A stretch of 6,669 nucleotides of DNA. Source: a virus. Taxonomy: Duplodnaviria; Heunggongvirae; Uroviricota; Caudoviricetes. Below, piece after piece: positions 1-6,669 of this stretch (position 1 is its first letter; every line of letters starts with the position of its first letter). Under the pieces are notes generated by a model, which had not been told where the DNA came from, did no database searches, and worked only from the letters and a program-made list of their open reading frames with translations. Position numbers and translations under genes: made by a program. Location: IMG/VR virus record IMGVR_UViG_2711768007_000014; one strand, given 5' to 3'.

Positions 1-152
1 AATACGGGAATACATTGAGATTTTCTACAATCGTCAGCGTCGTCACTCTCGTCTGGGGAATATCTCCCCGGCAGCCTTCAGGGAAAAATATCATCAGATG
101 GCTGCTTAAAAAAAGAACAAATGGTAGTGTCCGCTATTGCCAGTACACCTCA
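1..152 (+). mobile_element. Right-end fragment of an IS3-family insertion sequence (3' end of transposase gene plus terminal sequence ending ...CA at 152); cut by the window edge
   Basis: Positions 1-152 are a perfect reverse complement of 6518-6669 (verified base by base; identity breaks at 153/6515). The region encodes a transposase C-terminus with the IS3-family signature. The element terminus reads ...CCTCA, i.e. the complementary end would begin TGAGG..., consistent with IS3-family TG...CA termini. Exact IS name not recognised. Confidence 0.75.
2..109 (+). CDS. IS3-family transposase (OrfB/integrase-core) C-terminal 35 codons, 5'-truncated by window edge
   Basis: Frame 2 translates to IREYIEIFYNRQRRHSRLGNISPAAFREKYHQMAA followed by TAA at 107-109. 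The FYNxxRxHSxLGxxSPxxF motif is the conserved C-terminal tail of IS3-family DDE transposases. Confidence 0.75.
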   Translation: MREYIEIFYNRQRRHSRLGNISPAAFREKYHQMAA

Positions 153-334
153 GGATAGCGGTCATGTGATGCCGGTTTCCCGGTAACTCAGCACCGGTAT
201 CTGAGTCAACGTTTTCTCTACTGGGTCATTTCCGATACGCCCTGCCTGCTGACAGGCTTTCATCACATCTGAAAATATAGCACCCTGACTGATACTGTAG
301 TACCTAAGGTTCCAGAAACTGTGATGTATCCGGC

Positions 335-360
335 ACAGAAAAGCCCCTCCGGAGAGGGCT
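335..360 (-). terminator. Weak terminator-like hairpin (imperfect palindrome AGCCCCTCCGGAGAGGGCT) followed on the minus strand by UUUUCU
   Basis: Imperfect inverted repeat at 342-360 with a short A-run at 339-342 on the plus strand (a U-run on the minus-strand transcript). Only a 5-bp clean stem and 4 U residues, so weak. Confidence 0.3.
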
Positions 361-556
361 GGAGAGTGGCGCTATGTGCCATTGCATGATGCCGGGTGCC
401 TCCCGGTGAATTCAGTACCAGCACCTGAATCCGCGATTATCCCATATACCTACTCGCTGATTGCCCCTCCGCACAGGGGGATTCACCATGCCAGTTTCTT
501 TTAACAAACTCCCCGCAAAACAGACAACTGTCAACCGTCTGAATTGTGAGACATTT

Positions 557-582
557 AAAAAAAAGGCCCGCAAAAGCGAGCC
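557..582 (-). terminator. Rho-independent terminator immediately downstream of the tRNA cluster
   Basis: On the minus strand: 7-bp GC-rich stem (GGCUCGC/GCGGGCC with one G-U pair), 4-nt loop, then 8 consecutive U (plus-strand A-run 557-564). Sits 15 nt after the 3' CCA of the last tRNA. Confidence 0.6.
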
Positions 583-596
583 AGGGAAAATAAGTG

Positions 597-673
597 TGGC
601 GCGTTGTACTGGATTCGAACCAGTGACCGATTGCTTAGAAGGCAATTGCTCTGTCCGGCTGAGCTAACAACGC
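597..673 (-). tRNA. tRNA-Arg, anticodon UCU (reads AGA/AGG); argO-like phage tRNA
   Basis: Minus-strand sequence GCGTTGTTAGCTCAGCCGGACAGAGCAATTGCCTTCTAAGCAATCGGTCACTGGTTCGAATCCAGTACAACGCGCCA folds as a cloverleaf: 7-bp acceptor stem, GCTC/GAGC D-stem, anticodon stem ATTGC/GCAAT, loop CUUCUAA (anticodon UCU), T-arm ACTGG-TTCGAAT-CCAGT, encoded CCA. Confidence 0.85.
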
Positions 674-686
674 ATGATGCAGATAA

Positions 687-763
687 TGGACCGCCATCGG
701 GGACTTGAACCCCGCGCAGCCAGCTTCGAAGGCTGGCGCTCTTTCCTGATGAGCTAATGGCGG
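687..763 (-). tRNA. tRNA-Arg, anticodon read as UCG (reads CGA/CGG); argN-like phage tRNA
   Basis: Minus-strand sequence CCGCCATTAGCTCATCAGGAAAGAGCGCCAGCCTTCGAAGCTGGCTGCGCGGGGTTCAAGTCCCCGATGGCGGTCCA. Acceptor stem CCGCCAT/ATGGCGG, anticodon stem CCAGC/GCTGG, loop CUUCGAA (anticodon UCG), T-arm CGGGG-TTCAAGT-CCCCG, encoded CCA. D-loop is atypical (ATCAGGAAA). Confidence 0.75.
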
Positions 764-770
764 TATGTGA

Positions 771-846
771 TGGTGGCCCTTGCTGGATTTGAACCAGCGA
801 CCTGGCGATTATGAGTCGCTCGCTCTCACCACTGAGCTAAAGGGCC
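771..846 (-). tRNA. tRNA-Ile2 type (anticodon CAU, probably lysidine-modified to read AUA); ileZ/ileX-like
   Basis: Minus-strand sequence GGCCCTTTAGCTCAGTGGTGAGAGCGAGCGACTCATAATCGCCAGGTCGCTGGTTCAAATCCAGCAAGGGCCACCA. Near-identical in architecture to E. coli ileX as I recall it; anticodon loop CUCAUAA; encoded CCA. Could formally be an elongator tRNA-Met. Confidence 0.85.
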
Positions 847-886
847 GGGAGCCGCATAATAACGACGCGTAATTAATTCTTCAATA

Positions 887-1945
887 TCATCCGTTCTGGC
901 TGACTAAATCCTGTACTTCCCGAACCGTCTGCTCAAAACGTTCAGTCTCCAGCTCAACGCCAATTGCACGACGCCCGAGCGCCAGTGCCGCTTTCACTGT
1001 CGAACCCAACCCCATGAAAAAATCTGCAATCAGGTCACCCGGACGACTGCTAGCGCTGATTATCTGCTGCAGCATTTCTGCCGGTTTTTCGCACGGATGT
1101 TTCCCGGGATAGAACTGCACCGGTTTATGCGTCCACACATCGGTATACGGCACCTGCACCGTCACGCCAAAATACCGCCGCAGATGTTTATATTCACTCA
1201 GCAGCTCCGCATACTGCCGGTTCAGTGAGGTATACGTATCCACCAGCTGGTGGTGGAGCTTTTCCAGTTCACCACGCCGATGCTTCTCTTCTGCCACCCG
1301 GGCAAACAGCGCCTGTAATTTCAGATAATCGCTTTCATTCGGCAACTGCCACTGACCGGCACTGAACCAGTGCGACACCATGTTTTTCTTTCCTGTGGCA
1401 TCTGCAATCTGTTTTGCCGTTATCCCCAGGGCAGCTCGCGCATCACGAAAGTAAGAAATCAGCGGGGCCATCACATGCTGTTTCAGTGCACTGCCCTTCG
1501 CCGCATACCCGGCATCTTTCGGACGATACGGCCCCTGATAATGTTCCGCGAACAGAATGCGCTCTGTGGCGGGGAAATACGCCCGCAGGCTTTCCTTGTT
1601 GCATCCGTTCCAGCGTCCGGACGGCTTCGCCCAGATAATATGGTTCAGCACACTGAAGCGTTCACGCATCATGATTTCGATATCAGATGCCAGGCGATGA
1701 CCACAGAACAGGTAAAGACTTCCGGCAGGTTTCAGCACCCGCCAGAACTGCGCCAGACACTGGTCCAGCCACTTCAGGTAATCATCGTCGCCCTTCCACT
1801 GGTTATCCCAGCCCTCAGGCTTCACTTTAAAGTACGGCGGGTCCGTGACTATCAGGTCAACAGAATTTTCGGGTAACGACCGGATAAATTCCAGGCAGTC
1901 GGCGTTGATTAACTCACAACTGGATATTTTTACAGTATTAAGCAT
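887..1945 (-). CDS. DNA methyltransferase, N6-adenine/N4-cytosine beta-class (DPPY catalytic motif N-terminal, FxGxG AdoMet motif C-terminal); orphan
   Basis: 352-aa ORF. Motif IV DLIVTDPPYF near the N-terminus and motif I DFFMGLGST near the C-terminus give the circular-permuted beta-class order. No restriction endonuclease candidate in the window. Confidence 0.9.
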   Translation of the reverse strand: MLNTVKISSCELINADCLEFIRSLPENSVDLIVTDPPYFKVKPEGWDNQWKGDDDYLKWLDQCLAQFWRVLKPAGSLYLFCGHRLASDIEIMMRERFSVLNHIIWAKPSGRWNGCNKESLRAYFPATERILFAEHYQGPYRPKDAGYAAKGSALKQHVMAPLISYFRDARAALGITAKQIADATGKKNMVSHWFSAGQWQLPNESDYLKLQALFARVAEEKHRRGELEKLHHQLVDTYTSLNRQYAELLSEYKHLRRYFGVTVQVPYTDVWTHKPVQFYPGKHPCEKPAEMLQQIISASSRPGDLIADFFMGLGSTVKAALALGRRAIGVELETERFEQTVREVQDLVSQNG

Positions 1946-2037
1946 GGATCATTAAGCCTGTCTCTGATAGGCTCATTCTGCTTTTGCGCAAAGCAGTGGG
2001 CCTGAGGTTTGCTTGTGAACCCAACGCATGAGCAGAT

Positions 2038-2068
2038 GGCTGGTGGGTGCCCCTAACACCCACCAGCC
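2038..2068. repeat. Perfect 12-bp inverted repeat (GGCTGGTGGGTG ... CACCCACCAGCC) with a 7-nt loop, in the 5' leader of the methyltransferase gene
   Basis: Arms at 2038-2049 and 2057-2068 are exact reverse complements. No adjacent U-run on either strand, so it is not a canonical intrinsic terminator. A second palindrome (CTGCTTT-TGCGC-AAAGCAG) lies at 1978-1996, about 35 nt upstream of the methylase start. Confidence 0.5.
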
Positions 2069-2080
2069 GCCCATTTACCA

Positions 2081-2109
2081 CAAATAAAAAAGCCTTCACT
2101 GCGGAAGGC
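2081..2109 (-). terminator. Rho-independent terminator overlapping the stop codon of the small HTH ORF
   Basis: On the minus strand: stem GCCUUC/GAAGGC with loop CGCAGU, followed by UUUUUUAUUU (plus-strand A-run 2083-2090). Confidence 0.5.
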
Positions 2110-2293
2110 GTCTGTAACAACCGAACTGATAGTCTGCCAGACCCGCCATAACCAGCTGGGTCAGTATTAACTGGCAGCGTTCGCGTGAAAGGTAAGTATT
2201 CTGCGCTATCTCCCCGACTGTCGCCGGTTCGGTAACGCTTAATTCATTAAACACCACTCTGGCGGTTTCTGTCATATCCTGCTGTTTTAGCAT
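2096..2293 (-). CDS. Small hypothetical protein (65 aa) with helix-turn-helix-like segment
   Basis: ORF with AGGA-type ribosome binding site upstream. The segment ATVGEIAQNTYLSRERCQLILTQLVMAGL resembles a winged-helix/HTH recognition region. Not hydrophobic, so not a holin. No family recognised. Confidence 0.45.
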   Translation of the reverse strand: MLKQQDMTETARVVFNELSVTEPATVGEIAQNTYLSRERCQLILTQLVMAGLADYQFGCYRRLPQ

Positions 2294-2410
2294 GTCTTTT
2301 CCTTTTCCGGTTAACGTGACACACCAATAACTCTTGTCGAAAAAGCCAGCAAGCTGAAAGACAGGTATTCACCGCCACCAGCGCGTTTACTGTACTGACG
2401 CGATTTCAGT

Positions 2411-2437
2411 CATAAAAAACCCGCTCGGCGGCGGGTT
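2411..2437 (-). terminator. tR'-like intrinsic terminator about 80 nt downstream of the Q stop codon
   Basis: On the minus strand: stem ACCCGC/GCGGGU with a 6-nt loop, followed by UUUUUUAU (plus-strand A-run 2414-2419). Position relative to Q and the promoter below matches the lambdoid pR'-qut-tR' layout. Confidence 0.6.
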
Positions 2438-2484
2438 GTAGAAACTCTTCTAACGTCAGGCATAAAACGCCCATCGTTATAACG

Positions 2485-2512
2485 AATTTACCACAGATTC
2501 CGGAAAAATCAA
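2485..2512 (-). promoter_or_regulatory. pR'-like late promoter (-35 TTGATT, 16-bp spacer, -10 TAAATT preceded by TGG) starting 6 nt after the Q stop codon
   Basis: Sequence match to sigma-70 consensus on the minus strand (-35 at 2507-2512, -10 at 2485-2490). A short leader of roughly 65 nt would run to the terminator at 2411-2437, as expected for a Q-modified late promoter. Not experimentally verifiable from sequence. Confidence 0.5.
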
Positions 2513-2517
2513 CCTTG

Positions 2518-3339
2518 TTACCTAGTTACCTTTTTTAACTGCCGCTCAGCCCATGCTTCTTCAATATCAAACCGGGTCACCAGCGCATCATAAAATTTCT
2601 TAACTGTTTTTTCCCATGACGCGCGTGTTATCTGGTTTGTCACCTCGCATATAGCATTAAATGCCTCCGTTGATGGTAGTCTTTCATAGCCACGACCACC
2701 ACAACGCTGGCAGTCTCTGATAACAGGCATACCACGTTTTACCGACTCTTCACGATGAATGGCGACACCACGCCCACGGCAATCCTTACAGGCGGTGGAA
2801 ACCTCACCCTTTCCGCCACACTCCGGACAGGCAACTTTTACCACCTCCCTGACTTTTTTCCATTCTTCCCAGTAAGACGGATACACACCTTTCGTACACT
2901 TTGCCCATACCGGCGGCTTACCATCCGGATACTGGATCTTGTTTGTAAAAACCTCGCTTTCAATAAATTTTTTTCCGTGACAGCAGGGGCACTGTTTTTT
3001 GCTCGCCGCGCTACGGGCATAATCTTCAAACGCATACGAAGCCATAATACGCATCACTGCCGGTTTTATTTCTGCCGGGAGTTTTCTTAACGCCGCCACG
3101 CGATCACACCGACTGAGTGCATATTCTGTCAGCAATTCTGTTGCCCGCTCTCTGTCATTCATACTAATGCCCATTTTCCCAAGGAACGCAGAAACCCCCA
3201 TCTCAGCCCGATTCTGTGTCATGCCCTGCGCGGCCATCACATCAGTGATACTCAGCGCATCTTTCGACGTTGAGGCCGATGCATCAGTCAGGCCGGGGGA
3301 TTTTGGGGAGTAGTATTTCGGTAAATCTTCCAGTTTCAT
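2518..3339 (-). CDS. Q-like late-gene antitermination protein with four CxxCxGxG zinc-finger repeats
   Basis: 273-aa ORF immediately downstream of rusA (ATGA overlap) and immediately upstream of the pR'/tR'-like signals. N-terminus MKLEDLPKYYSPKSP resembles the Qin-prophage Q homologue (QuuQ) as I recall it. Contains CPCCHGKK, CPECGGKG, CKDCRGRG and CQRCGGRG repeats. Confidence 0.7.
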   Translation of the reverse strand: MKLEDLPKYYSPKSPGLTDASASTSKDALSITDVMAAQGMTQNRAEMGVSAFLGKMGISMNDRERATELLTEYALSRCDRVAALRKLPAEIKPAVMRIMASYAFEDYARSAASKKQCPCCHGKKFIESEVFTNKIQYPDGKPPVWAKCTKGVYPSYWEEWKKVREVVKVACPECGGKGEVSTACKDCRGRGVAIHREESVKRGMPVIRDCQRCGGRGYERLPSTEAFNAICEVTNQITRASWEKTVKKFYDALVTRFDIEEAWAERQLKKVTR

Positions 3340-3716
3340 TTTTTGACCTGCCCTTCAAGCATTATGGGATAAATCTTCACCCCCAGACGTCCACCAGATA
3401 CTGGCTGAGCACGAACGATATTGATTTCATCAAACTGCTCATCGTCCATTAGCAACCCCGCATGCGTCAGCGCATCCAGCGGCGCTTTCAGAATATTGTC
3501 CAGGTCACGGCGGCGCTTATCCGGTGGTTCTGCAATAATTTTTATTGCCAACCTTCCGGACAGGCTTAATTTCAGCCGCTGCTGGCGAACAATAAGCGCC
3601 ACTGCCCGGCGATAACGCTCCCCGGCTTTTGATACAAAATATGTGCTGCCACGACGACGCCAGTAAGTGTTCACCGTCGGCGGGTAAGGTAAAACAAATT
3701 CTATGCGCTCGGTCAT
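3336..3716 (-). CDS. rusA: Crossover junction endodeoxyribonuclease RusA (Holliday junction resolvase)
   Basis: 126-aa ORF. Strong recognisable similarity to E. coli RusA along the whole length (LPYPPTVNTYWRRRG..., ...DKRRRDLDNILKAPLDALTHAGLLMDDEQ..., GGRLGVKIYP). Stop overlaps the Q start. Confidence 0.85.
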   Translation of the reverse strand: MTERIEFVLPYPPTVNTYWRRRGSTYFVSKAGERYRRAVALIVRQQRLKLSLSGRLAIKIIAEPPDKRRRDLDNILKAPLDALTHAGLLMDDEQFDEINIVRAQPVSGGRLGVKIYPIMLEGQVKK

Positions 3717-4775
3717 TTATGCTTTCCACTTCAGAACACCCGAATTTCTCGCGTGCATTAAAAAACGAATCAGCAACAACAGCTGACTGCCGTGTTTCTC
3801 TTCAAAATCTTTTACTCCGGCATGTAGTTCGTTACGGCATTTACGGCATAACGGAATAACAAACAAATCATCAGCCTTTGTTCCCATCCCTCCCAGTCCA
3901 TGACCAATGATGTGATGCGGATCATCTGCCTGATTGCCACACGTCATGCATTTCTGCGTTTTTACCCAGCGCGTGTATACAGGCATCTCTTCCCGTTGTG
4001 ATTTCTGGCGCTGGAGATACTGAGCCGGTGACTCCGGATCAACGGCAATGCTGACCACCGTCTTTTCCTGTGGTGGGTTCTGTTGCTGGTGGACGTGAGG
4101 CAGTAACGCAATATTTTTTGTGCGCTGCTTCAGTATGCTGGTGGCTGTCTGCTCTCCCGGTATGATGTCGCTTTCACTGTACACAGAGCGAATTTTTTCC
4201 GCACGCAACCCCAGCGAACGACGTAATACCGCTTCCGGTAGCGCGTCCGCCACCTGATTGCGGACCGCCCACCAGGATAATTCAGCCAGAGATAATTCAC
4301 GCTCCTGCGTACCGCTTATTGCGTGACCGATGACGTCAATCATCCATGCTGACAGGTTTTGATGAGCAAGTTGCTCGAGTGATTCGGATGTCTGGTCACG
4401 CAGCTGGTTGTCGCAGTGCCAGCACAACACCATTGCGCCGGTACCATAACGGTGAATGACGGTTTCGCTGTGATGATAATCGCCGTGTGGCCACTGGCAG
4501 GATTTAATATGGCGCAACAGCCAGTCAGACAATGCACCAGCACCACCAGCAGCACGAATCACCCGTGCGTTACTGAAAAACGGCAGCAATGTTTTGTCTT
4601 CCACCAGCGGCTGGCGAGCGGCAGGAACGACCCCGGACGGCAGATTACGCATGCTTTTTGGTTCCGGCTCCACCAGTATTCTGCCGTTATGGAATGCTGA
4701 CATTGATTCACGGCCTGGCTTAACGATAACCAGACCGAGTTCCGGTACCAGAACAGGTCGAAGTAATACCCGCAC
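3717..4775 (-). CDS. DUF968-type prophage protein (YdfU-like) with C-terminal HNH-like Cys/His motif; putative nuclease
   Basis: 352-aa ORF starting at GTG 4775 (an internal ATG at the MSAFHNGRIL residue is an alternative start). C-terminus has C-x2-C ... HH ... C-x2-C ... H spacing (CMTCGN...DPHHIIGH...CRKCRNELH). Position between the nin small genes and rusA matches ydfU in the Qin prophage. Stop abuts the rusA ATG. Confidence 0.6.
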   Translation of the reverse strand: MRVLLRPVLVPELGLVIVKPGRESMSAFHNGRILVEPEPKSMRNLPSGVVPAARQPLVEDKTLLPFFSNARVIRAAGGAGALSDWLLRHIKSCQWPHGDYHHSETVIHRYGTGAMVLCWHCDNQLRDQTSESLEQLAHQNLSAWMIDVIGHAISGTQERELSLAELSWWAVRNQVADALPEAVLRRSLGLRAEKIRSVYSESDIIPGEQTATSILKQRTKNIALLPHVHQQQNPPQEKTVVSIAVDPESPAQYLQRQKSQREEMPVYTRWVKTQKCMTCGNQADDPHHIIGHGLGGMGTKADDLFVIPLCRKCRNELHAGVKDFEEKHGSQLLLLIRFLMHARNSGVLKWKA

Positions 4776-4776
4776 A

Positions 4777-5132
4777 TTACCTCCAGATCCGTTGCTGGAA
4801 TGTGCGGGACGGACGCGTTGGCCGTTCGGAGTAAGGGAGCCTGACGGAGATTATCCAGTGACGGTAGTCGAGGCTAAGGGCTTTTTTAACCTCGCATCCG
4901 CGCCTGCGGTAACACTGAATGAGCCATTCGGCCTGTTCTTCAGTGCATGGGGGATGCTGGTACCAATCAGATTTAAATGCGTGAGAGCGCCGCCCGTGCC
5001 TGCTGGCAAAGACGGCTGAATTATCAGAATTGTGTAGTCTGGAAGGCAGTGGCTGACAATAGCGCCATTCTCAACGCGCACAGTATAGAGGCCATCTTCA
5101 CTAAAAATTTCACGTAATTCTTCGATTTTCAT
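4777..5132 (-). pseudogene. Hypothetical gene apparently disrupted by a 1-nt frameshift (N-terminal part in one frame, protein-like C-terminal part in the -1 frame with no start codon)
   Basis: ATG at 5130-5132 with a good GGAAGGA ribosome binding site gives MKIEELREIFSEDGLYTVRVENGAIVSHCLPDYTILIIQ..., then decays into low-complexity sequence. The overlapping frame encodes ...HGRRSHAFKSDWYQHPPCTEEQAEWLIQCYRRRGCEVKKALSLDYRHWIISVRLPYSERP..., ending at a TAA (4777-4779) that overlaps the downstream start region. That frame has no ATG/GTG/TTG back to its upstream TGA. Confidence 0.45.
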
Positions 5133-5214
5133 CAACAGAATCCTTCCAGATAAATAGCACTCCCCTGTTCGGGGTCCATCCCTCTTCTCCCTGCGCGCTA
5201 CTTAAGTATTTTTG

Positions 5215-5244
5215 ATTCTATTCCGGCACCATCTAAAACTTCAA
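5215..5244 (-). promoter_or_regulatory. Candidate sigma-70 promoter (-35 TTGAAG, 18-bp spacer, -10 TAGAAT) upstream of the frameshifted gene/DUF968/rusA/Q operon
   Basis: Consensus-like hexamers on the minus strand between the hok terminator and the next ribosome binding site. Sequence match only. Confidence 0.25.
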
Positions 5245-5249
5245 ACGCG

Positions 5250-5283
5250 TTGAAAATAAAAACAAAAACCCGCCGAAGCGGGT
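5250..5283 (-). terminator. Rho-independent terminator of the hok mRNA
   Basis: On the minus strand: stem ACCCGC/GCGGGU closed by a UUCG tetraloop, followed by UUUUGUUUUUAUUUU. Confidence 0.65.
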
Positions 5284-5352
5284 TAAGTGTGGGTGCATTG
5301 AGGATGCCTGCCCCATCAGAGGTGGCGAGGGATTTCTCCCCCGCCTGGTCTC

Positions 5353-5508
5353 TTACTCCTCAGGTTCGTAAGCTGTGAAGACAGCGACCTCCGTCTGGCC
5401 GGTTCGAATTCGTACCTCGCAGAGGTCTTTCCTCGTTACCAGTGCCGTCACTATGACGGTTAAACAGATGACGATCAGGGCGATTAACATCGCCTTTTGC
5501 TGCTTCAT
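5353..5508 (-). CDS. hokD: Hok-family type I toxin (51 aa), HokD/RelF-like
   Basis: Translation MKQQKAMLIALIVICLTVIVTALVTRKDLCEVRIRTGQTEVAVFTAYEPEE matches the Hok family (single transmembrane helix, conserved C...C and TAYE tail) and, from memory, HokD/RelF. An upstream ATG at 5565 with a GAGG ribosome binding site (mok-equivalent) is in frame with hok here, so the ORF track shows a 70-aa extended ORF 5353-5565. Confidence 0.9.
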   Translation of the reverse strand: MKQQKAMLIALIVICLTVIVTALVTRKDLCEVRIRTGQTEVAVFTAYEPEE

Positions 5509-5584
5509 AGCCTGCTTCTCCTTGCCTTTCGGCACGTAAGAGGCTAACCTAGATTTGCCGTTCATAGATTGAGCCTCAGATTAA

Positions 5585-5660
5585 TGTTAAGCGTCTTGCC
5601 GGACGCGTAATGTTAACTGGGGCTTTTCTCTATCTGCCTTTTGGTGTTCATGCCTGAGAC
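5585..5660 (+). ncRNA. Putative Sok-like antisense RNA complementary to the hok mRNA leader (boundaries approximate)
   Basis: Inferred from the hok/sok paradigm. The hok leader here (minus strand, ...GGGTGCTTGAGGCTATCTGTCTCAGGCATGAAC...) resembles the plasmid R1 hok 5' end. I could not confidently map the sok promoter or terminator; a possible promoter is TTGCCG-N19-ATTAAT near 5555-5585. Confidence 0.3.
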
Positions 5661-5683
5661 AGATAGCCTCAAGCACCCGCTGC

Positions 5684-5711
5684 AATTCTACTTAACTCTC
5701 CTTTTCCCGCA
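5684..5711 (-). promoter_or_regulatory. Candidate hok promoter (-35 TTGCGG, 16-bp spacer, -10 TAGAAT); predicted start near 5676
   Basis: Consensus-like hexamers placed so that the transcript would begin at GGGTGCTTGAGGC, which parallels the R1 hok mRNA 5' end (GGCGCUUGAGGC). Transcript to the terminator would be about 420 nt. Confidence 0.4.
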
Positions 5712-5719
5712 AACCGTTT

Positions 5720-5803
5720 TTATCCCCAGCGGCAAATCGAATACACCACCAGCGCCACCGCCATCGCAATTCCTACCGTTGTTAATGCTTCAGGCCAGGT
5801 CAT
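5720..5803 (-). CDS. 27-codon hydrophobic small ORF ([27 protein letters not shown]), start overlapping the stop of the upstream ORF (ATGA)
   Basis: ATG overlaps the TGA of the 114-aa ORF. Hydrophobic core [16 protein letters not shown] is compatible with a membrane-inserted peptide. Its 3' end overlaps the candidate hok promoter. Below the ORF-track size cutoff; could be fortuitous. Confidence 0.3.
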
Positions 5804-6144
5804 CGTAAAATATCCTCCACGCTTATCAGTCCGTTCCGCTCCAGATAACTCATCGCCTTATCCGGTAATTTGCAGTCTGGCTTCGCTTTCCTCAGTTGCC
5901 AGGTTAACTGCTTTACCAGCATGGTTAACTCATCGACCAGACGCTGATATCCCACTGGTTTGTATTCATGCAATTTACCGGCTGGCTCTGCTGCCAGCGA
6001 TACCAGTGCGATTTCCAGAACAGCAATATCCATCTTATATGTGCGGATGATGTCATGGTCGATTGTGCCCGGTATGCACAGTCTCTGTGCTTCAATAGTC
6101 TCCTCTGCGTGAGCTATTAACTGCTCTCTGGTAAAAGTCGTCAT
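5800..6144 (-). CDS. Hypothetical protein (114 aa), paralogous in its N-terminal half to the upstream 55-aa ORF
   Basis: ORF with start overlapping the upstream ORF stop (ATGA). Shares MTT(F/I)T(R/K)E and (E/D)(L/I)A...IAL(V/A)SL(A/E)AEP with the 55-aa ORF. No family recognised. Confidence 0.55.
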
Positions 6145-6308
6145 GCCGTAGCCCCTTCTTGATATTTTTCAAACCAGAACACAACCGGCTCTGCTTCCAG
6201 CGATGCCAGCGCAATCCGTGCCAGTTCCATTTGTTCACCACGGGTAAGCCCGTTTTCAAGCGGGTTTTTAATGAACAATTCAATACGTTCTTTGGTAATA
6301 GTGGTCAT
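6141..6308 (-). CDS. Hypothetical small protein (55 aa; [55 protein letters not shown])
   Basis: Not in the ORF track (below size cutoff); found by manual translation. Perfect Shine-Dalgarno AAGGAG 5 nt upstream of the ATG at 6308; stop overlaps the next ORF start. Paralogous to the first half of the 114-aa ORF. Confidence 0.5.
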
Positions 6309-6318
6309 GTGTTACTCC

Positions 6319-6517
6319 TTAACCCGCAGTGCTTTCAACTGATGAGGGGAACAAAATCTTTTCATCAAACCCTGCATTCATATCATGAACAGCAACACAC
6401 CAATCCATCGACGAACGATTATCAAGAGCCTCCATGATTTCATCCATGCGGCGTAGGTCATACAGGTAAATGCTTTTATCGCCAATGGTGTAAAAGCCAA
6501 TTTTTTTCGGTGATGGA
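6319..6517 (-). CDS. Hypothetical ORF whose reading frame stays open up to the IS junction; possibly the 3' portion of a gene interrupted by the IS
   Basis: The track ORF 6319-6549 begins inside IS-derived sequence. The prophage-derived part encodes ...PSPKKIGFYTIGDKSIYLYDLRRMDEIMEALDNRSSMDWCVAVHDMNAGFDEKILFPSSVESTAG. Internal Met codons could instead be the true start. No family recognised. Confidence 0.35.
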
Positions 6518-6669
6518 TGAGGTGTACTGGCAATAGCGGACACTACCATTTGTTCTTTTTTTAAGCAGCCATCTGATGATATTTTTCCCTGAAGGCTGCC
6601 GGGGAGATATTCCCCAGACGAGAGTGACGACGCTGACGATTGTAGAAAATCTCAATGTATTCCCGTATT
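6518..6669 (-). mobile_element. Second copy of the same IS3-family right end, in inverted orientation; cut by the window edge
   Basis: Exact reverse complement of 1-152. Confidence 0.75.
6561..6668 (-). CDS. IS3-family transposase C-terminal 35 codons (second, inverted copy), truncated by window edge
   Basis: Mirror image of the 2-109 partial CDS; identical translation ...IEIFYNRQRRHSRLGNISPAAFREKYHQMAA. Confidence 0.75.
   Translation of the reverse strand: MREYIEIFYNRQRRHSRLGNISPAAFREKYHQMAA

What the first reader, a model, noticed from the sequence alone, without database searches (positions are those of the whole stretch)
1..6669. Prophage segment bracketed by two inverted, identical IS3-family right ends (composite-transposon-like or invertible module)
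Positions 1-152 and 6518-6669 are perfect reverse complements; I checked base by base and the identity ends exactly at the predicted IS terminus (...CA). Both copies point their transposase 3' ends inward. The whole 6.36-kb cassette could therefore be inverted or deleted by homologous recombination between the copies, or mobilised as a composite element. Perfect identity suggests recent transposition or gene conversion.
Basis: seen in the sequence. Interest (0 to 1): 0.65.

Follow-up and report, generated by a model that had tools for sequence, protein, structure and literature searches.

The report
IS600 copies flanking Shigella prophage remnant
The window is a piece of a decayed lambda-like prophage of Shigella sonnei that lies between two separately inserted, oppositely oriented copies of the common insertion sequence IS600; this is an ordinary product of the well-known IS expansion in Shigella, not a composite transposon or a dedicated invertible switch.

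Summary
Window 1-152 and 6518-6669 are perfect reverse complements. They are the last 152 nt (orfB 3' end plus right inverted repeat) of IS600, an IS3-family element. The window is 99.97% identical to complete Shigella sonnei chromosomes. There, both copies are full length (1264 bp), inverted, with right ends inward. So 152 nt is only where the window stops.

The copy on the tRNA side is a simple insertion. It has a 3-bp target duplication, and an empty-site allele survives in other S. sonnei strains, including 53G (lineage II). The other copy is present in every contig examined and has no target duplication. It truncates an 87-aa phage ORF and abuts an inverted, truncated DUF977 gene, so it is an old rearrangement joint.

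The outer flanks (TTT and TCC) do not form a composite-transposon duplication. All 13 two-copy contigs show the same orientation of the segment. In the five genomes where the two copies were compared base by base, they differ at one to three sites in four and are identical in one.

The cargo is the hok/sok, DUF968, RusA, Q, methylase and tRNA block of a prophage next to ompW. Recombination between the copies could invert the segment but not delete it; no inversion was seen. This is ordinary and already known in kind.

The parts
1..152 (+). 3' end of IS600 copy B, the tRNA-side copy: last 35 codons of orfB (stop at 107-109) and the right inverted repeat ending ...CACCTCA. In the genome it is full length (1264 bp).
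   Evidence: RefSeq calls the 100% matches 'IS3-like element IS600 family transposase'. Full-length copy at L003 16398-17661. The translation matches the IS600 orfB C-terminus.
153..155 (.). 3-bp target-site duplication of copy B (GGA on the window strand, TCC in locus orientation).
   Evidence: L003 has ...GCTATCC|IS|TCCTTCCAGG, whereas the empty site in L004 reads ...GCTATCCTTCCAGG. The same flanks occur in all two-copy loci.
331..520 (-). STnc100-family sRNA-like element downstream of the tRNA cluster.
   Evidence: Rfam RF02076, 123.6 bits against a gathering score of 47.
597..846 (-). Phage tRNA cluster: tRNA-Arg(UCU) at 597-673, tRNA-Arg(UCG) at 687-763, and a CAU-anticodon tRNA at 771-846. 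ARAGORN calls the last one Met; RefSeq annotates the homologue as tRNA-Ile.
   Evidence: ARAGORN; Rfam tRNA; RefSeq annotation of the E. coli homologues.
887..1945 (-). N6/N4 DNA methyltransferase (352 aa).
   Evidence: Pfam PF01555, E = 7.9e-42.
2096..2293 (-). 65-aa hypothetical phage protein. The only family match is a weak, sub-threshold TrmB-like helix-turn-helix hit.
   Evidence: The homologue is annotated as hypothetical in E. coli.
2518..3339 (-). Late-gene antiterminator Q (273 aa, with zinc-finger CXXC repeats).
   Evidence: Pfam PF03589 Antiterm, E = 1.6e-53.
3336..3716 (-). RusA Holliday-junction resolvase.
   Evidence: Pfam PF05866, E = 1.5e-16.
3717..4775 (-). DUF968 / YdfU-like protein with an HNH-like motif.
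   Evidence: Pfam PF06147, E = 2.6e-62. Annotated ydfU in PPompW phages.
4851..5135 (-). 94-aa ORF spanning a lineage-specific 250-bp deletion (joint at 5044/5045) that removed most of the rem-like gene.
   Evidence: L004 and L009 carry 250 extra bases here. A Rem ORF is called in the one-copy loci. Joint sequences are shown.
5353..5678 (-). hok/sok-type type I toxin-antitoxin locus: Hok/Gef ORF at 5353-5565 and the Rfam sok match at 5503-5678.
   Evidence: Pfam PF01848, E = 3e-23. Rfam RF01794, 112.4 bits. Annotated hokD in E. coli.
5800..6308 (-). Two small phage ORFs of unknown function: 114 aa (5800-6144) and 55 aa (6141-6308).
   Evidence: ORF list. No Pfam hit. Conserved as hypothetical proteins in E. 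coli prophages.
6319..6517 (-). 3' part of an 87-aa phage ORF truncated by IS600 copy A after about codon 21. Gene callers extend it into the IS (to 6549) as a chimeric 76-aa ORF.
   Evidence: Alignment with the intact E. coli TUM10008 protein. The 76-aa product is on record in 795 collection blocks.
6518..6669 (-). 3' end of IS600 copy A, present in every contig examined. It is full length in all but one of them and has no target-site duplication (outer TTT, inner TCC).
   Evidence: L003 8769-10032 and the flanks in all loci. L020 carries an internally deleted version of 449 bp.

Best explanation
The window is a contig-sized piece of a degraded lambdoid prophage next to ompW in Shigella sonnei. 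It is the nin/Q/tRNA block lying between two separate full-length copies of IS600 in inverted orientation. Copy B (window left) is a lineage-specific copy-out/paste-in insertion between the phage tRNA cluster and the nanS-like esterase and lysis genes, with the 3-bp duplication typical of the IS3 family. Copy A (window right) is present in every S. sonnei contig examined. It sits in an 87-aa nin-region ORF and is a recombinant joint: its outer side is an inverted, 5'-truncated DUF977 gene. The pattern is exactly what recombination between an IS600 in DUF977 and an IS600 in the 87-aa ORF would leave. The repressor/replication region and the reciprocal joint would then have been lost beside an IS1. 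This last history is inferred, not shown. The pair is a by-product of the IS expansion in Shigella. It forms 1.26-kb inverted repeats on which RecA-dependent recombination could invert the 6.36-kb segment and so uncouple Q and the late promoter from the lysis genes. There is no sign that this has happened or that the unit moves as one piece.
For: Repeat confirmed. The IS is identified as IS600. Its anatomy fits the IS3 family: 1264 bp, imperfect terminal repeats TGAGGT...ACGGACAC, an A7G slippery site at position 316, and orfA/orfB with HTH and rve domains.

The window is 99.97% identical over its full length to complete chromosomes. Three of these are named in papers as S. sonnei: 2015C-3566, UKMCC1015 and 53G.

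Both copies are full length and inverted in 13 contigs, all in the same orientation. Copy B has the TCC duplication, and the empty site occurs in 7 contigs, including 53G of lineage II. Copy A has no duplication. It truncates an ORF that is intact in E. coli, and its outer flank is an inverted DUF977. In L011 homology ends exactly at the copy A terminus, which shows that this copy serves as a recombination breakpoint.

The two copies differ at IS positions 126 and 980 in L005, L006 and L008 (L008 also at 1148) and only at 126 in L011, so they are two real loci. Neither junction is found in 5,426 complete E. coli genomes.

Literature: IS600 is one of five IS expanded in all Shigella (PMC7373316). 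IS-flanked inversions are reported in S. sonnei lineages (PMC12795559).
Against: The exact source genome of the window was not found; every locus differs from it by at least two bases. The inversion-plus-deletion history of copy A is inferred from the two junction sequences alone. The predicted reciprocal junction was not found in any E. coli complete genome and could not be searched for across whole Shigella genomes. Orientation was read in only 13 displayed contigs. The look-up tool hides places with the same neighbouring genes, so a rare inverted assembly could have been collapsed out of view. Minority orientations within a culture cannot be seen in consensus assemblies. In L003 the two copies are identical, which may reflect gene conversion or assembly polishing.
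Confidence: 0.9

Rival explanations
1. Composite transposon: the two IS600 copies and the 6.36-kb cargo were mobilised, or are mobilisable, as one unit.
For: Two full-length, potentially active IS600 copies bracket the segment.
Against: The two copies arrived at different times: 7 contigs have copy A with an empty site at the position of copy B. Copy B has its own 3-bp duplication. The outer flanks of the unit are TTT and TCC, which is not a duplication. The cargo is collinear with the adjacent late genes exactly as in uninterrupted E. coli prophages. The unit was never seen in another context on its tRNA side. The outer ends would both be left ends, whereas IS3-family transposition normally pairs a left end with a right end (own knowledge of the IS911/IS3 mechanism; not tested here).
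Confidence: 0.02
2. Actively flipping invertible module: homologous recombination between the two copies keeps both orientations in the population and switches the coupling of Q and the late promoter to the lysis genes.
For: The 1264-bp inverted repeats, 99.8-100% identical and 6.4 kb apart, are a good RecA substrate. The junctions of copy A look like the product of an earlier IS600 x IS600 inversion in this same prophage. IS-flanked inversions are documented in S. sonnei.
Against: All 13 two-copy contigs have the same orientation, which is the ancestral one relative to the late genes, and copy B still has its intact duplication. An odd number of inversions would have split that duplication. 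No invertase or specific recombination site is present in the window. The prophage lacks its repressor and replication modules, so a lysis switch would have little to control.
Confidence: 0.06
3. Assembly artefact: a single IS600 copy collapsed or duplicated at both contig ends, or an artificially closed or palindromic contig.
For: The repeat sits exactly at both window edges, and the window has the size of a typical short-read contig bounded by repeats (contig-size distribution).
Against: Many independent complete chromosomes show two copies with different outer flanks: DUF977 on one side and the SASA esterase and holin on the other. Sequence differences between the copies were seen in four of the five genomes compared. 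Only the length of 152 nt is an artefact of where the contig stops.
Confidence: 0.02

Closest known systems
IS600 (IS3 family) insertions in Shigella chromosomes, part of the IS1/IS2/IS4/IS600/IS911 expansion (Hawkey et al. 2020, PMC7373316)
   Same: The same element at 100% identity over the 152 nt. It is 1264 bp long with a 3-bp target duplication, a programmed-frameshift orfAB, lineage-specific presence or absence, gene truncation, and use as a recombination breakpoint.
   Different: Nothing essential. This particular pair and its history were not found described in the papers read here, but both copies are present in public complete genomes.
IS-flanked chromosomal inversions in S. sonnei and S. 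dysenteriae (PMC12795559; PMC7819885)
   Same: Inverted copies of one IS bracket a segment. Homologous recombination between IS copies is the accepted cause of inversions in these genomes. The junctions of copy A fit such a past event.
   Different: For the present pair no inversion is observed. The segment is only 6.4 kb, below the 7-kb threshold used in the survey read.
Defective IS-riddled Stx prophage of Shigella dysenteriae type 1 (IS600 next to stx; PMC7819885)
   Same: A lambdoid prophage remnant in Shigella, immobilised and cut up by IS elements, with an IS600 close to the Q-tRNA-(stx)-lysis region.
   Different: There is no stx here. The slot between the tRNAs and the esterase/lysis genes, where Stx phages carry stx (H61), holds the STnc100-like element and the IS600 insertion. 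The host species and integration site (next to ompW) also differ.
PPompW-type and related lambdoid prophages of E. coli (LC567822.1; prophages of TUM10008 and ATCC 11775)
   Same: The gene order hok/gef, rem, ydfU (DUF968), rusA, Q, tRNAs, and the location beside ompW. Identity is 90-97% over most of the cargo.
   Different: The E. coli relatives have no IS600 at these positions and keep the immunity and replication genes. PPompW has a different Q and no methylase.

Membership tests
IS600 (IS3 family, IS3 group) | Near-identical nucleotide sequence to IS600 and a length of about 1.26 kb. | tested here: met
   The 152 nt are 100% identical to elements RefSeq labels IS600. The copies are 1264 bp, delimited by comparison with the empty site.
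IS600 (IS3 family, IS3 group) | Imperfect terminal inverted repeats beginning TG and ending CA. | tested here: met
   Left end TGAGGTAGCCTG...ACGGACAC; the right end reads TGAGGTGTACTG...GCGGACAC in reverse complement.
IS600 (IS3 family, IS3 group) | Two overlapping ORFs (orfA with an HTH, orfB with a DDE rve domain) joined by a -1 frameshift at an A-rich slippery site. | tested here: met
   A7G at position 316, with orfA in frame 2 and orfB in frame 1. Gene calls of 100 + 272 aa, or a fused 385 aa, carry HTH_Tnp_1, HTH_21 and rve. RefSeq notes a programmed frameshift for IS3-family transposases.
IS600 (IS3 family, IS3 group) | 3-bp target-site duplication on insertion. | tested here: met
   Copy B: TCC on both sides, a single TCC in the empty site. 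Copy A: not met (TTT and TCC), explained as a recombinant joint.
Composite (compound) transposon | Two copies of one IS bracket a cargo segment. | tested here: met
Composite (compound) transposon | The whole unit is flanked by one target-site duplication, showing that it moved as a unit. | tested here: not met
   The outer flanks are ...AATTTT|IS and IS|TCCTTCC. TTT and TCC do not match.
Composite (compound) transposon | The unit is found in unrelated genomic contexts, or the cargo is foreign to its surroundings. | tested here: not met
   The cargo is collinear with the adjacent late genes as in E. coli prophages. An empty-site allele exists for copy B. The tRNA-side context is identical in all 20 contigs.
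Programmed invertible DNA segment (Hin/Gin/Fim-type switch) | A dedicated site-specific recombinase with short specific inverted sites. | tested here: not met
   No recombinase ORF or domain lies in the segment. The repeats are whole IS copies.
Programmed invertible DNA segment (Hin/Gin/Fim-type switch) | Both orientations are present among isolates or within a culture. | tested here: not met
   13 of 13 two-copy contigs have one orientation. Heterogeneity within a culture cannot be tested with these tools.
Lambdoid prophage late-regulatory (nin-Q-tRNA) region | The order hok/nin ORFs, RusA, Q antiterminator, tRNAs, followed by lysis genes. | tested here: met
   Pfam and tRNA calls. The esterase, holin and DUF1327 genes follow beyond copy B. 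The block is 90-97% identical to E. coli prophages and phages.

The most novel reading that the evidence does not exclude
The IS600 pair works as a recombination-driven flip-flop in S. sonnei lineage III populations. Inversion of the 6.36-kb Q-methylase-tRNA block would disconnect the Q-dependent late promoter from the esterase and lysis genes and point it at the inverted DUF977/IS1 side. The result would be heterogeneous expression of cryptic-prophage lysis or tRNA genes.
Probability: 0.04. Interest if true: 0.35.

Novelty: already known. Interest (0 to 1): 0.08.

Why it matters
It matters little beyond bookkeeping. It illustrates how the IS expansion in Shigella cuts up and immobilises prophages. 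It also shows that a short-read contig ending in inverted IS fragments is a signature of repeat-bounded assembly, not of a special mobile module. The presence or absence of the tRNA-side IS600 copy, together with the linked 250-bp deletion, may separate S. sonnei sublineages and could serve as a minor typing marker. The one empty-site strain whose lineage was checked is 53G, of lineage II. The junctions of the other copy preserve a plausible record of an old IS600-mediated inversion inside this prophage.

Tried and rejected
1. Exact containment of the window in any fetched locus: none. The best loci differ at window positions 2481 and 5311, so the precise source strain remains unidentified.

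2. Search of 5,426 complete E. coli genomes for the left junction, the right junction and the predicted reciprocal junction of the inferred old inversion: no record covers any of them. The junctions are specific to S. sonnei in the data available, and the inversion model stays unconfirmed.

3. Explaining why the repeat stops at 152 nt. The variable positions seen among the IS600 copies held (126, 551, 629, 980, 1148) give no reason for a break at IS position 1112. A 9.8-kb short-read contig of the one-copy allele (L024) carries no IS sequence at its ends. The figure is probably assembler-specific and was not resolved.

4. Outward hybrid promoter from the IS600 right end into the cargo. The consensus scan lists no promoter-like site at either junction, so this was not pursued.

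5. Scans of genome contigs and metagenome contigs, and the large protein searches, were not run. The species-representative collection is unlikely to hold S. sonnei as a separate genome, and the exact-protein look-ups already gave complete chromosomes.

6. The phage collection: no record covers 80% or more of the cargo. There is no closer free-phage relative than the E. coli prophages.
Full report
**Observation.** The window begins and ends with a perfect 152-nt inverted repeat, 1-152 against 6518-6669 (I1). The inner ends stop at ...CACCTCA. The outer ends are the window edges, so the repeat length is a lower bound. The window is the entire source sequence.

**Identity of the repeat.** The 152 nt match at 100% elements that RefSeq annotates as 'IS3-like element IS600 family transposase'; 3151 E. 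coli records match at >=99%. Bases 2-109 encode the C-terminus of orfB (...IREYIEIFYNRQRRHSRLGNISPAAFREKYHQMAA*), and the remainder is the right inverted repeat.

**Source and full context.**
- No complete E. coli genome carries the window with its IS ends. The best hits cover 339-6517 at 94-97%.
- A chimeric 76-aa ORF crosses the right junction (6319-6549, starting inside the IS). An exact-sequence look-up of it found 795 collection blocks, 83 of them with contigs longer than 1 Mb.
- The complete chromosomes returned match the whole window at 99.97%, with mismatches at positions 2481 and 5311.
- Three of these accessions are named in papers as Shigella sonnei: CP022457 is strain 2015C-3566, CP060117 is UKMCC1015, and HE616528 is 53G of lineage II.
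- The modal contig size for the junction ORF is 5-10 kb (325 of 795 blocks; for the methylase, 1806 of 4314). This is what short-read assemblies give for a 6.4-kb unique segment between repeats. The window is most likely such a contig.

**Both copies are real and full length.** In L003 the copies lie at 8769-10032 (+) and 16398-17661 (-). Each is 1264 bp, with right ends inward. The element has the IS3-family anatomy: imperfect terminal repeats, an A7G slippery site at position 316, and orfA/orfB with HTH and rve domains. Thirteen contigs carry both copies. The two copies were compared base by base in five genomes. They differ at IS positions 126 and 980 in L005 and L006, at those two plus 1148 in L008, and only at 126 in L011. 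They are identical in L003. They are therefore two loci and not a collapsed repeat, and the identity of the last 152 nt says little about their age.

**Copy B (window left, tRNA side) is a simple and fairly recent insertion.** L003 reads ...GCTA TCC|IS600|TCC TTCCAGG..., whereas L004 reads ...GCTA TCC TTCCAGG.... This gives a 3-bp duplication (window 153-155, GGA) and an empty site. The empty-site allele occurs in 7 contigs: L004, L009 (UKMCC1015), L018 (53G, lineage II), L020, L021, L023 and L024. The six of these whose sequence reaches that junction already carry copy A. L024 starts a few bases inside the inner flank, which fits a contig that broke at copy A. The empty-site contigs also keep 250 bp (a rem-like gene) that the window lacks at 5044/5045. 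Beyond copy B come the nanS-like SASA esterase, the holin and DUF1327, in the order seen in uninterrupted E. coli prophages. The cargo is thus in its ancestral orientation relative to the late genes.

**Copy A (window right) is a rearrangement joint present in every contig.**
- Its flanks are ...CCCTTTAATTTT|IS600|TCCATCACC..., so there is no duplication.
- The inner flank is an 87-aa phage ORF cut after about codon 21. The intact gene in E. coli TUM10008 reads ...GATCGCTG TCC ATCACC....
- The outer flank is a DUF977 gene lacking its first 11 codons and inverted relative to the cargo. In E. coli, DUF977 lies about 1.7 kb upstream in the same orientation.
- These two joints are exactly what recombination would leave between an IS600(-) inserted in the A-run of DUF977 and an IS600(+) inserted at TCC in the 87-aa ORF. 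An IS1 lies to the left of DUF977, followed by early-left genes, an int fragment, attL and ompW. The repressor, replication genes and the reciprocal joint are therefore gone.
- This history is inference. The predicted reciprocal joint was not found in E. coli genomes.
- In L011 homology to the other genomes starts exactly at the copy A terminus, and in L008 at the IS1. These IS copies are evidently live recombination breakpoints in S. sonnei.

**Cargo.** On the minus strand, in phage order: the truncated 87-aa ORF, ORFs of 55 and 114 aa, hok/sok (Pfam HOK_GEF, Rfam sok), a 94-aa ORF across the 250-bp deletion, DUF968/YdfU, RusA, Q antiterminator, a 65-aa ORF, an N6/N4 DNA methylase, three tRNAs (CAU, Arg-UCG, Arg-UCU) and an STnc100-like sRNA. 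This is the ordinary nin-Q-tRNA block of lambdoid and Stx-type prophages, and Stx2 phages carry stx after the same tRNAs. The prophage lies beside ompW like the PPompW phages.

**Testing the interpretations.**
- Composite transposon: rejected. The copies were acquired separately, copy B has its own duplication, there is no duplication around the unit, and the cargo is native to its context.
- Deletion by recombination between the copies: not expected, because the repeats are inverted. A third IS600 about 3.5 kb beyond copy B is in direct orientation with it and could delete the esterase-holin block.
- Inversion: mechanistically possible on 1.26-kb repeats, but all 13 two-copy contigs share one orientation and copy B keeps its duplication intact. 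Heterogeneity within a culture cannot be assessed here.
- Assembly artefact: rejected, apart from the 152-nt cut-off.

**Comparison with what is known.** IS600 is one of five IS expanded in all Shigella species, and S. sonnei shows the highest recent IS activity (PMC7373316). IS-flanked inversions and lineage-specific structural variants are documented in S. sonnei (PMC12795559) and in S. dysenteriae, whose defective Stx prophage also carries IS600 beside stx (PMC7819885). The feature is an ordinary instance of this and is already present in many public complete genomes.

**Verdict.** Novelty is 'already known' and interest is low.

Noticed in passing
window 5044/5045; L004 11506-11755: The window lineage has a clean 250-bp deletion that removes most of a rem-like gene. 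The stretch is kept in every contig that lacks IS600 copy B, so the two events look linked to the same S. sonnei sublineage. No obvious direct repeat lies at the deletion joint.
   Followed up: partly
window 331-520 (-): A strong match to the Rfam sRNA family STnc100 (123.6 bits) lies between the phage tRNA cluster and the IS600 insertion site. This is the slot where Stx phages carry stx. Its function here is unknown.
   Followed up: no
window 5353-5678 (-): An apparently intact hok/sok type I toxin-antitoxin locus (Hok/Gef ORF plus the Rfam sok match) sits inside the IS-bracketed segment. It may help to stabilise this prophage remnant.
   Followed up: no
L004 20108-20231; L016 and L017 12564-13059: A third IS600 copy lies about 3.5 kb beyond copy B, after the esterase, holin and DUF1327 genes, in direct orientation with copy B. 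That pair could delete the lysis block. In L020 and L023 this position holds something different: an IS remnant plus tail genes in L020, and an IS21 in L023.
   Followed up: partly
L020 730-1178: In one chromosome (CP029794.1) copy A is an internally deleted IS600 of 449 bp (positions 1-233 joined to 1049-1264) with the same flanks. This is either a real deletion derivative or an assembly error.
   Followed up: partly
L003, L005, L008 and L011, left of position 8769: The sequence to the left of copy A differs between S. sonnei genomes. It is ompW/yciABC in most, phage tail genes in L005, a Mu-like Mom/Gin region in L008 and a different prophage in L011. The homology breaks fall at IS600, at IS1 or at the attL region, so this locus is a hot spot of large rearrangements.
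   Followed up: partly
window 771-846 (-): ARAGORN calls the CAU-anticodon tRNA tRNA-Met, but RefSeq annotates the E. coli homologues as tRNA-Ile (the lysidine type, ileZ-like of Stx phages). The identity was not checked further.
   Followed up: no
E. coli hits H78-H85: Several IS600 copies in STEC prophages (in ninB, erf and tail-fibre genes) have left-flank sequences that match the last 10-15 nt of the synthetic junction query. This hints at a target-sequence preference of IS600 within lambdoid prophage DNA.
   Followed up: no
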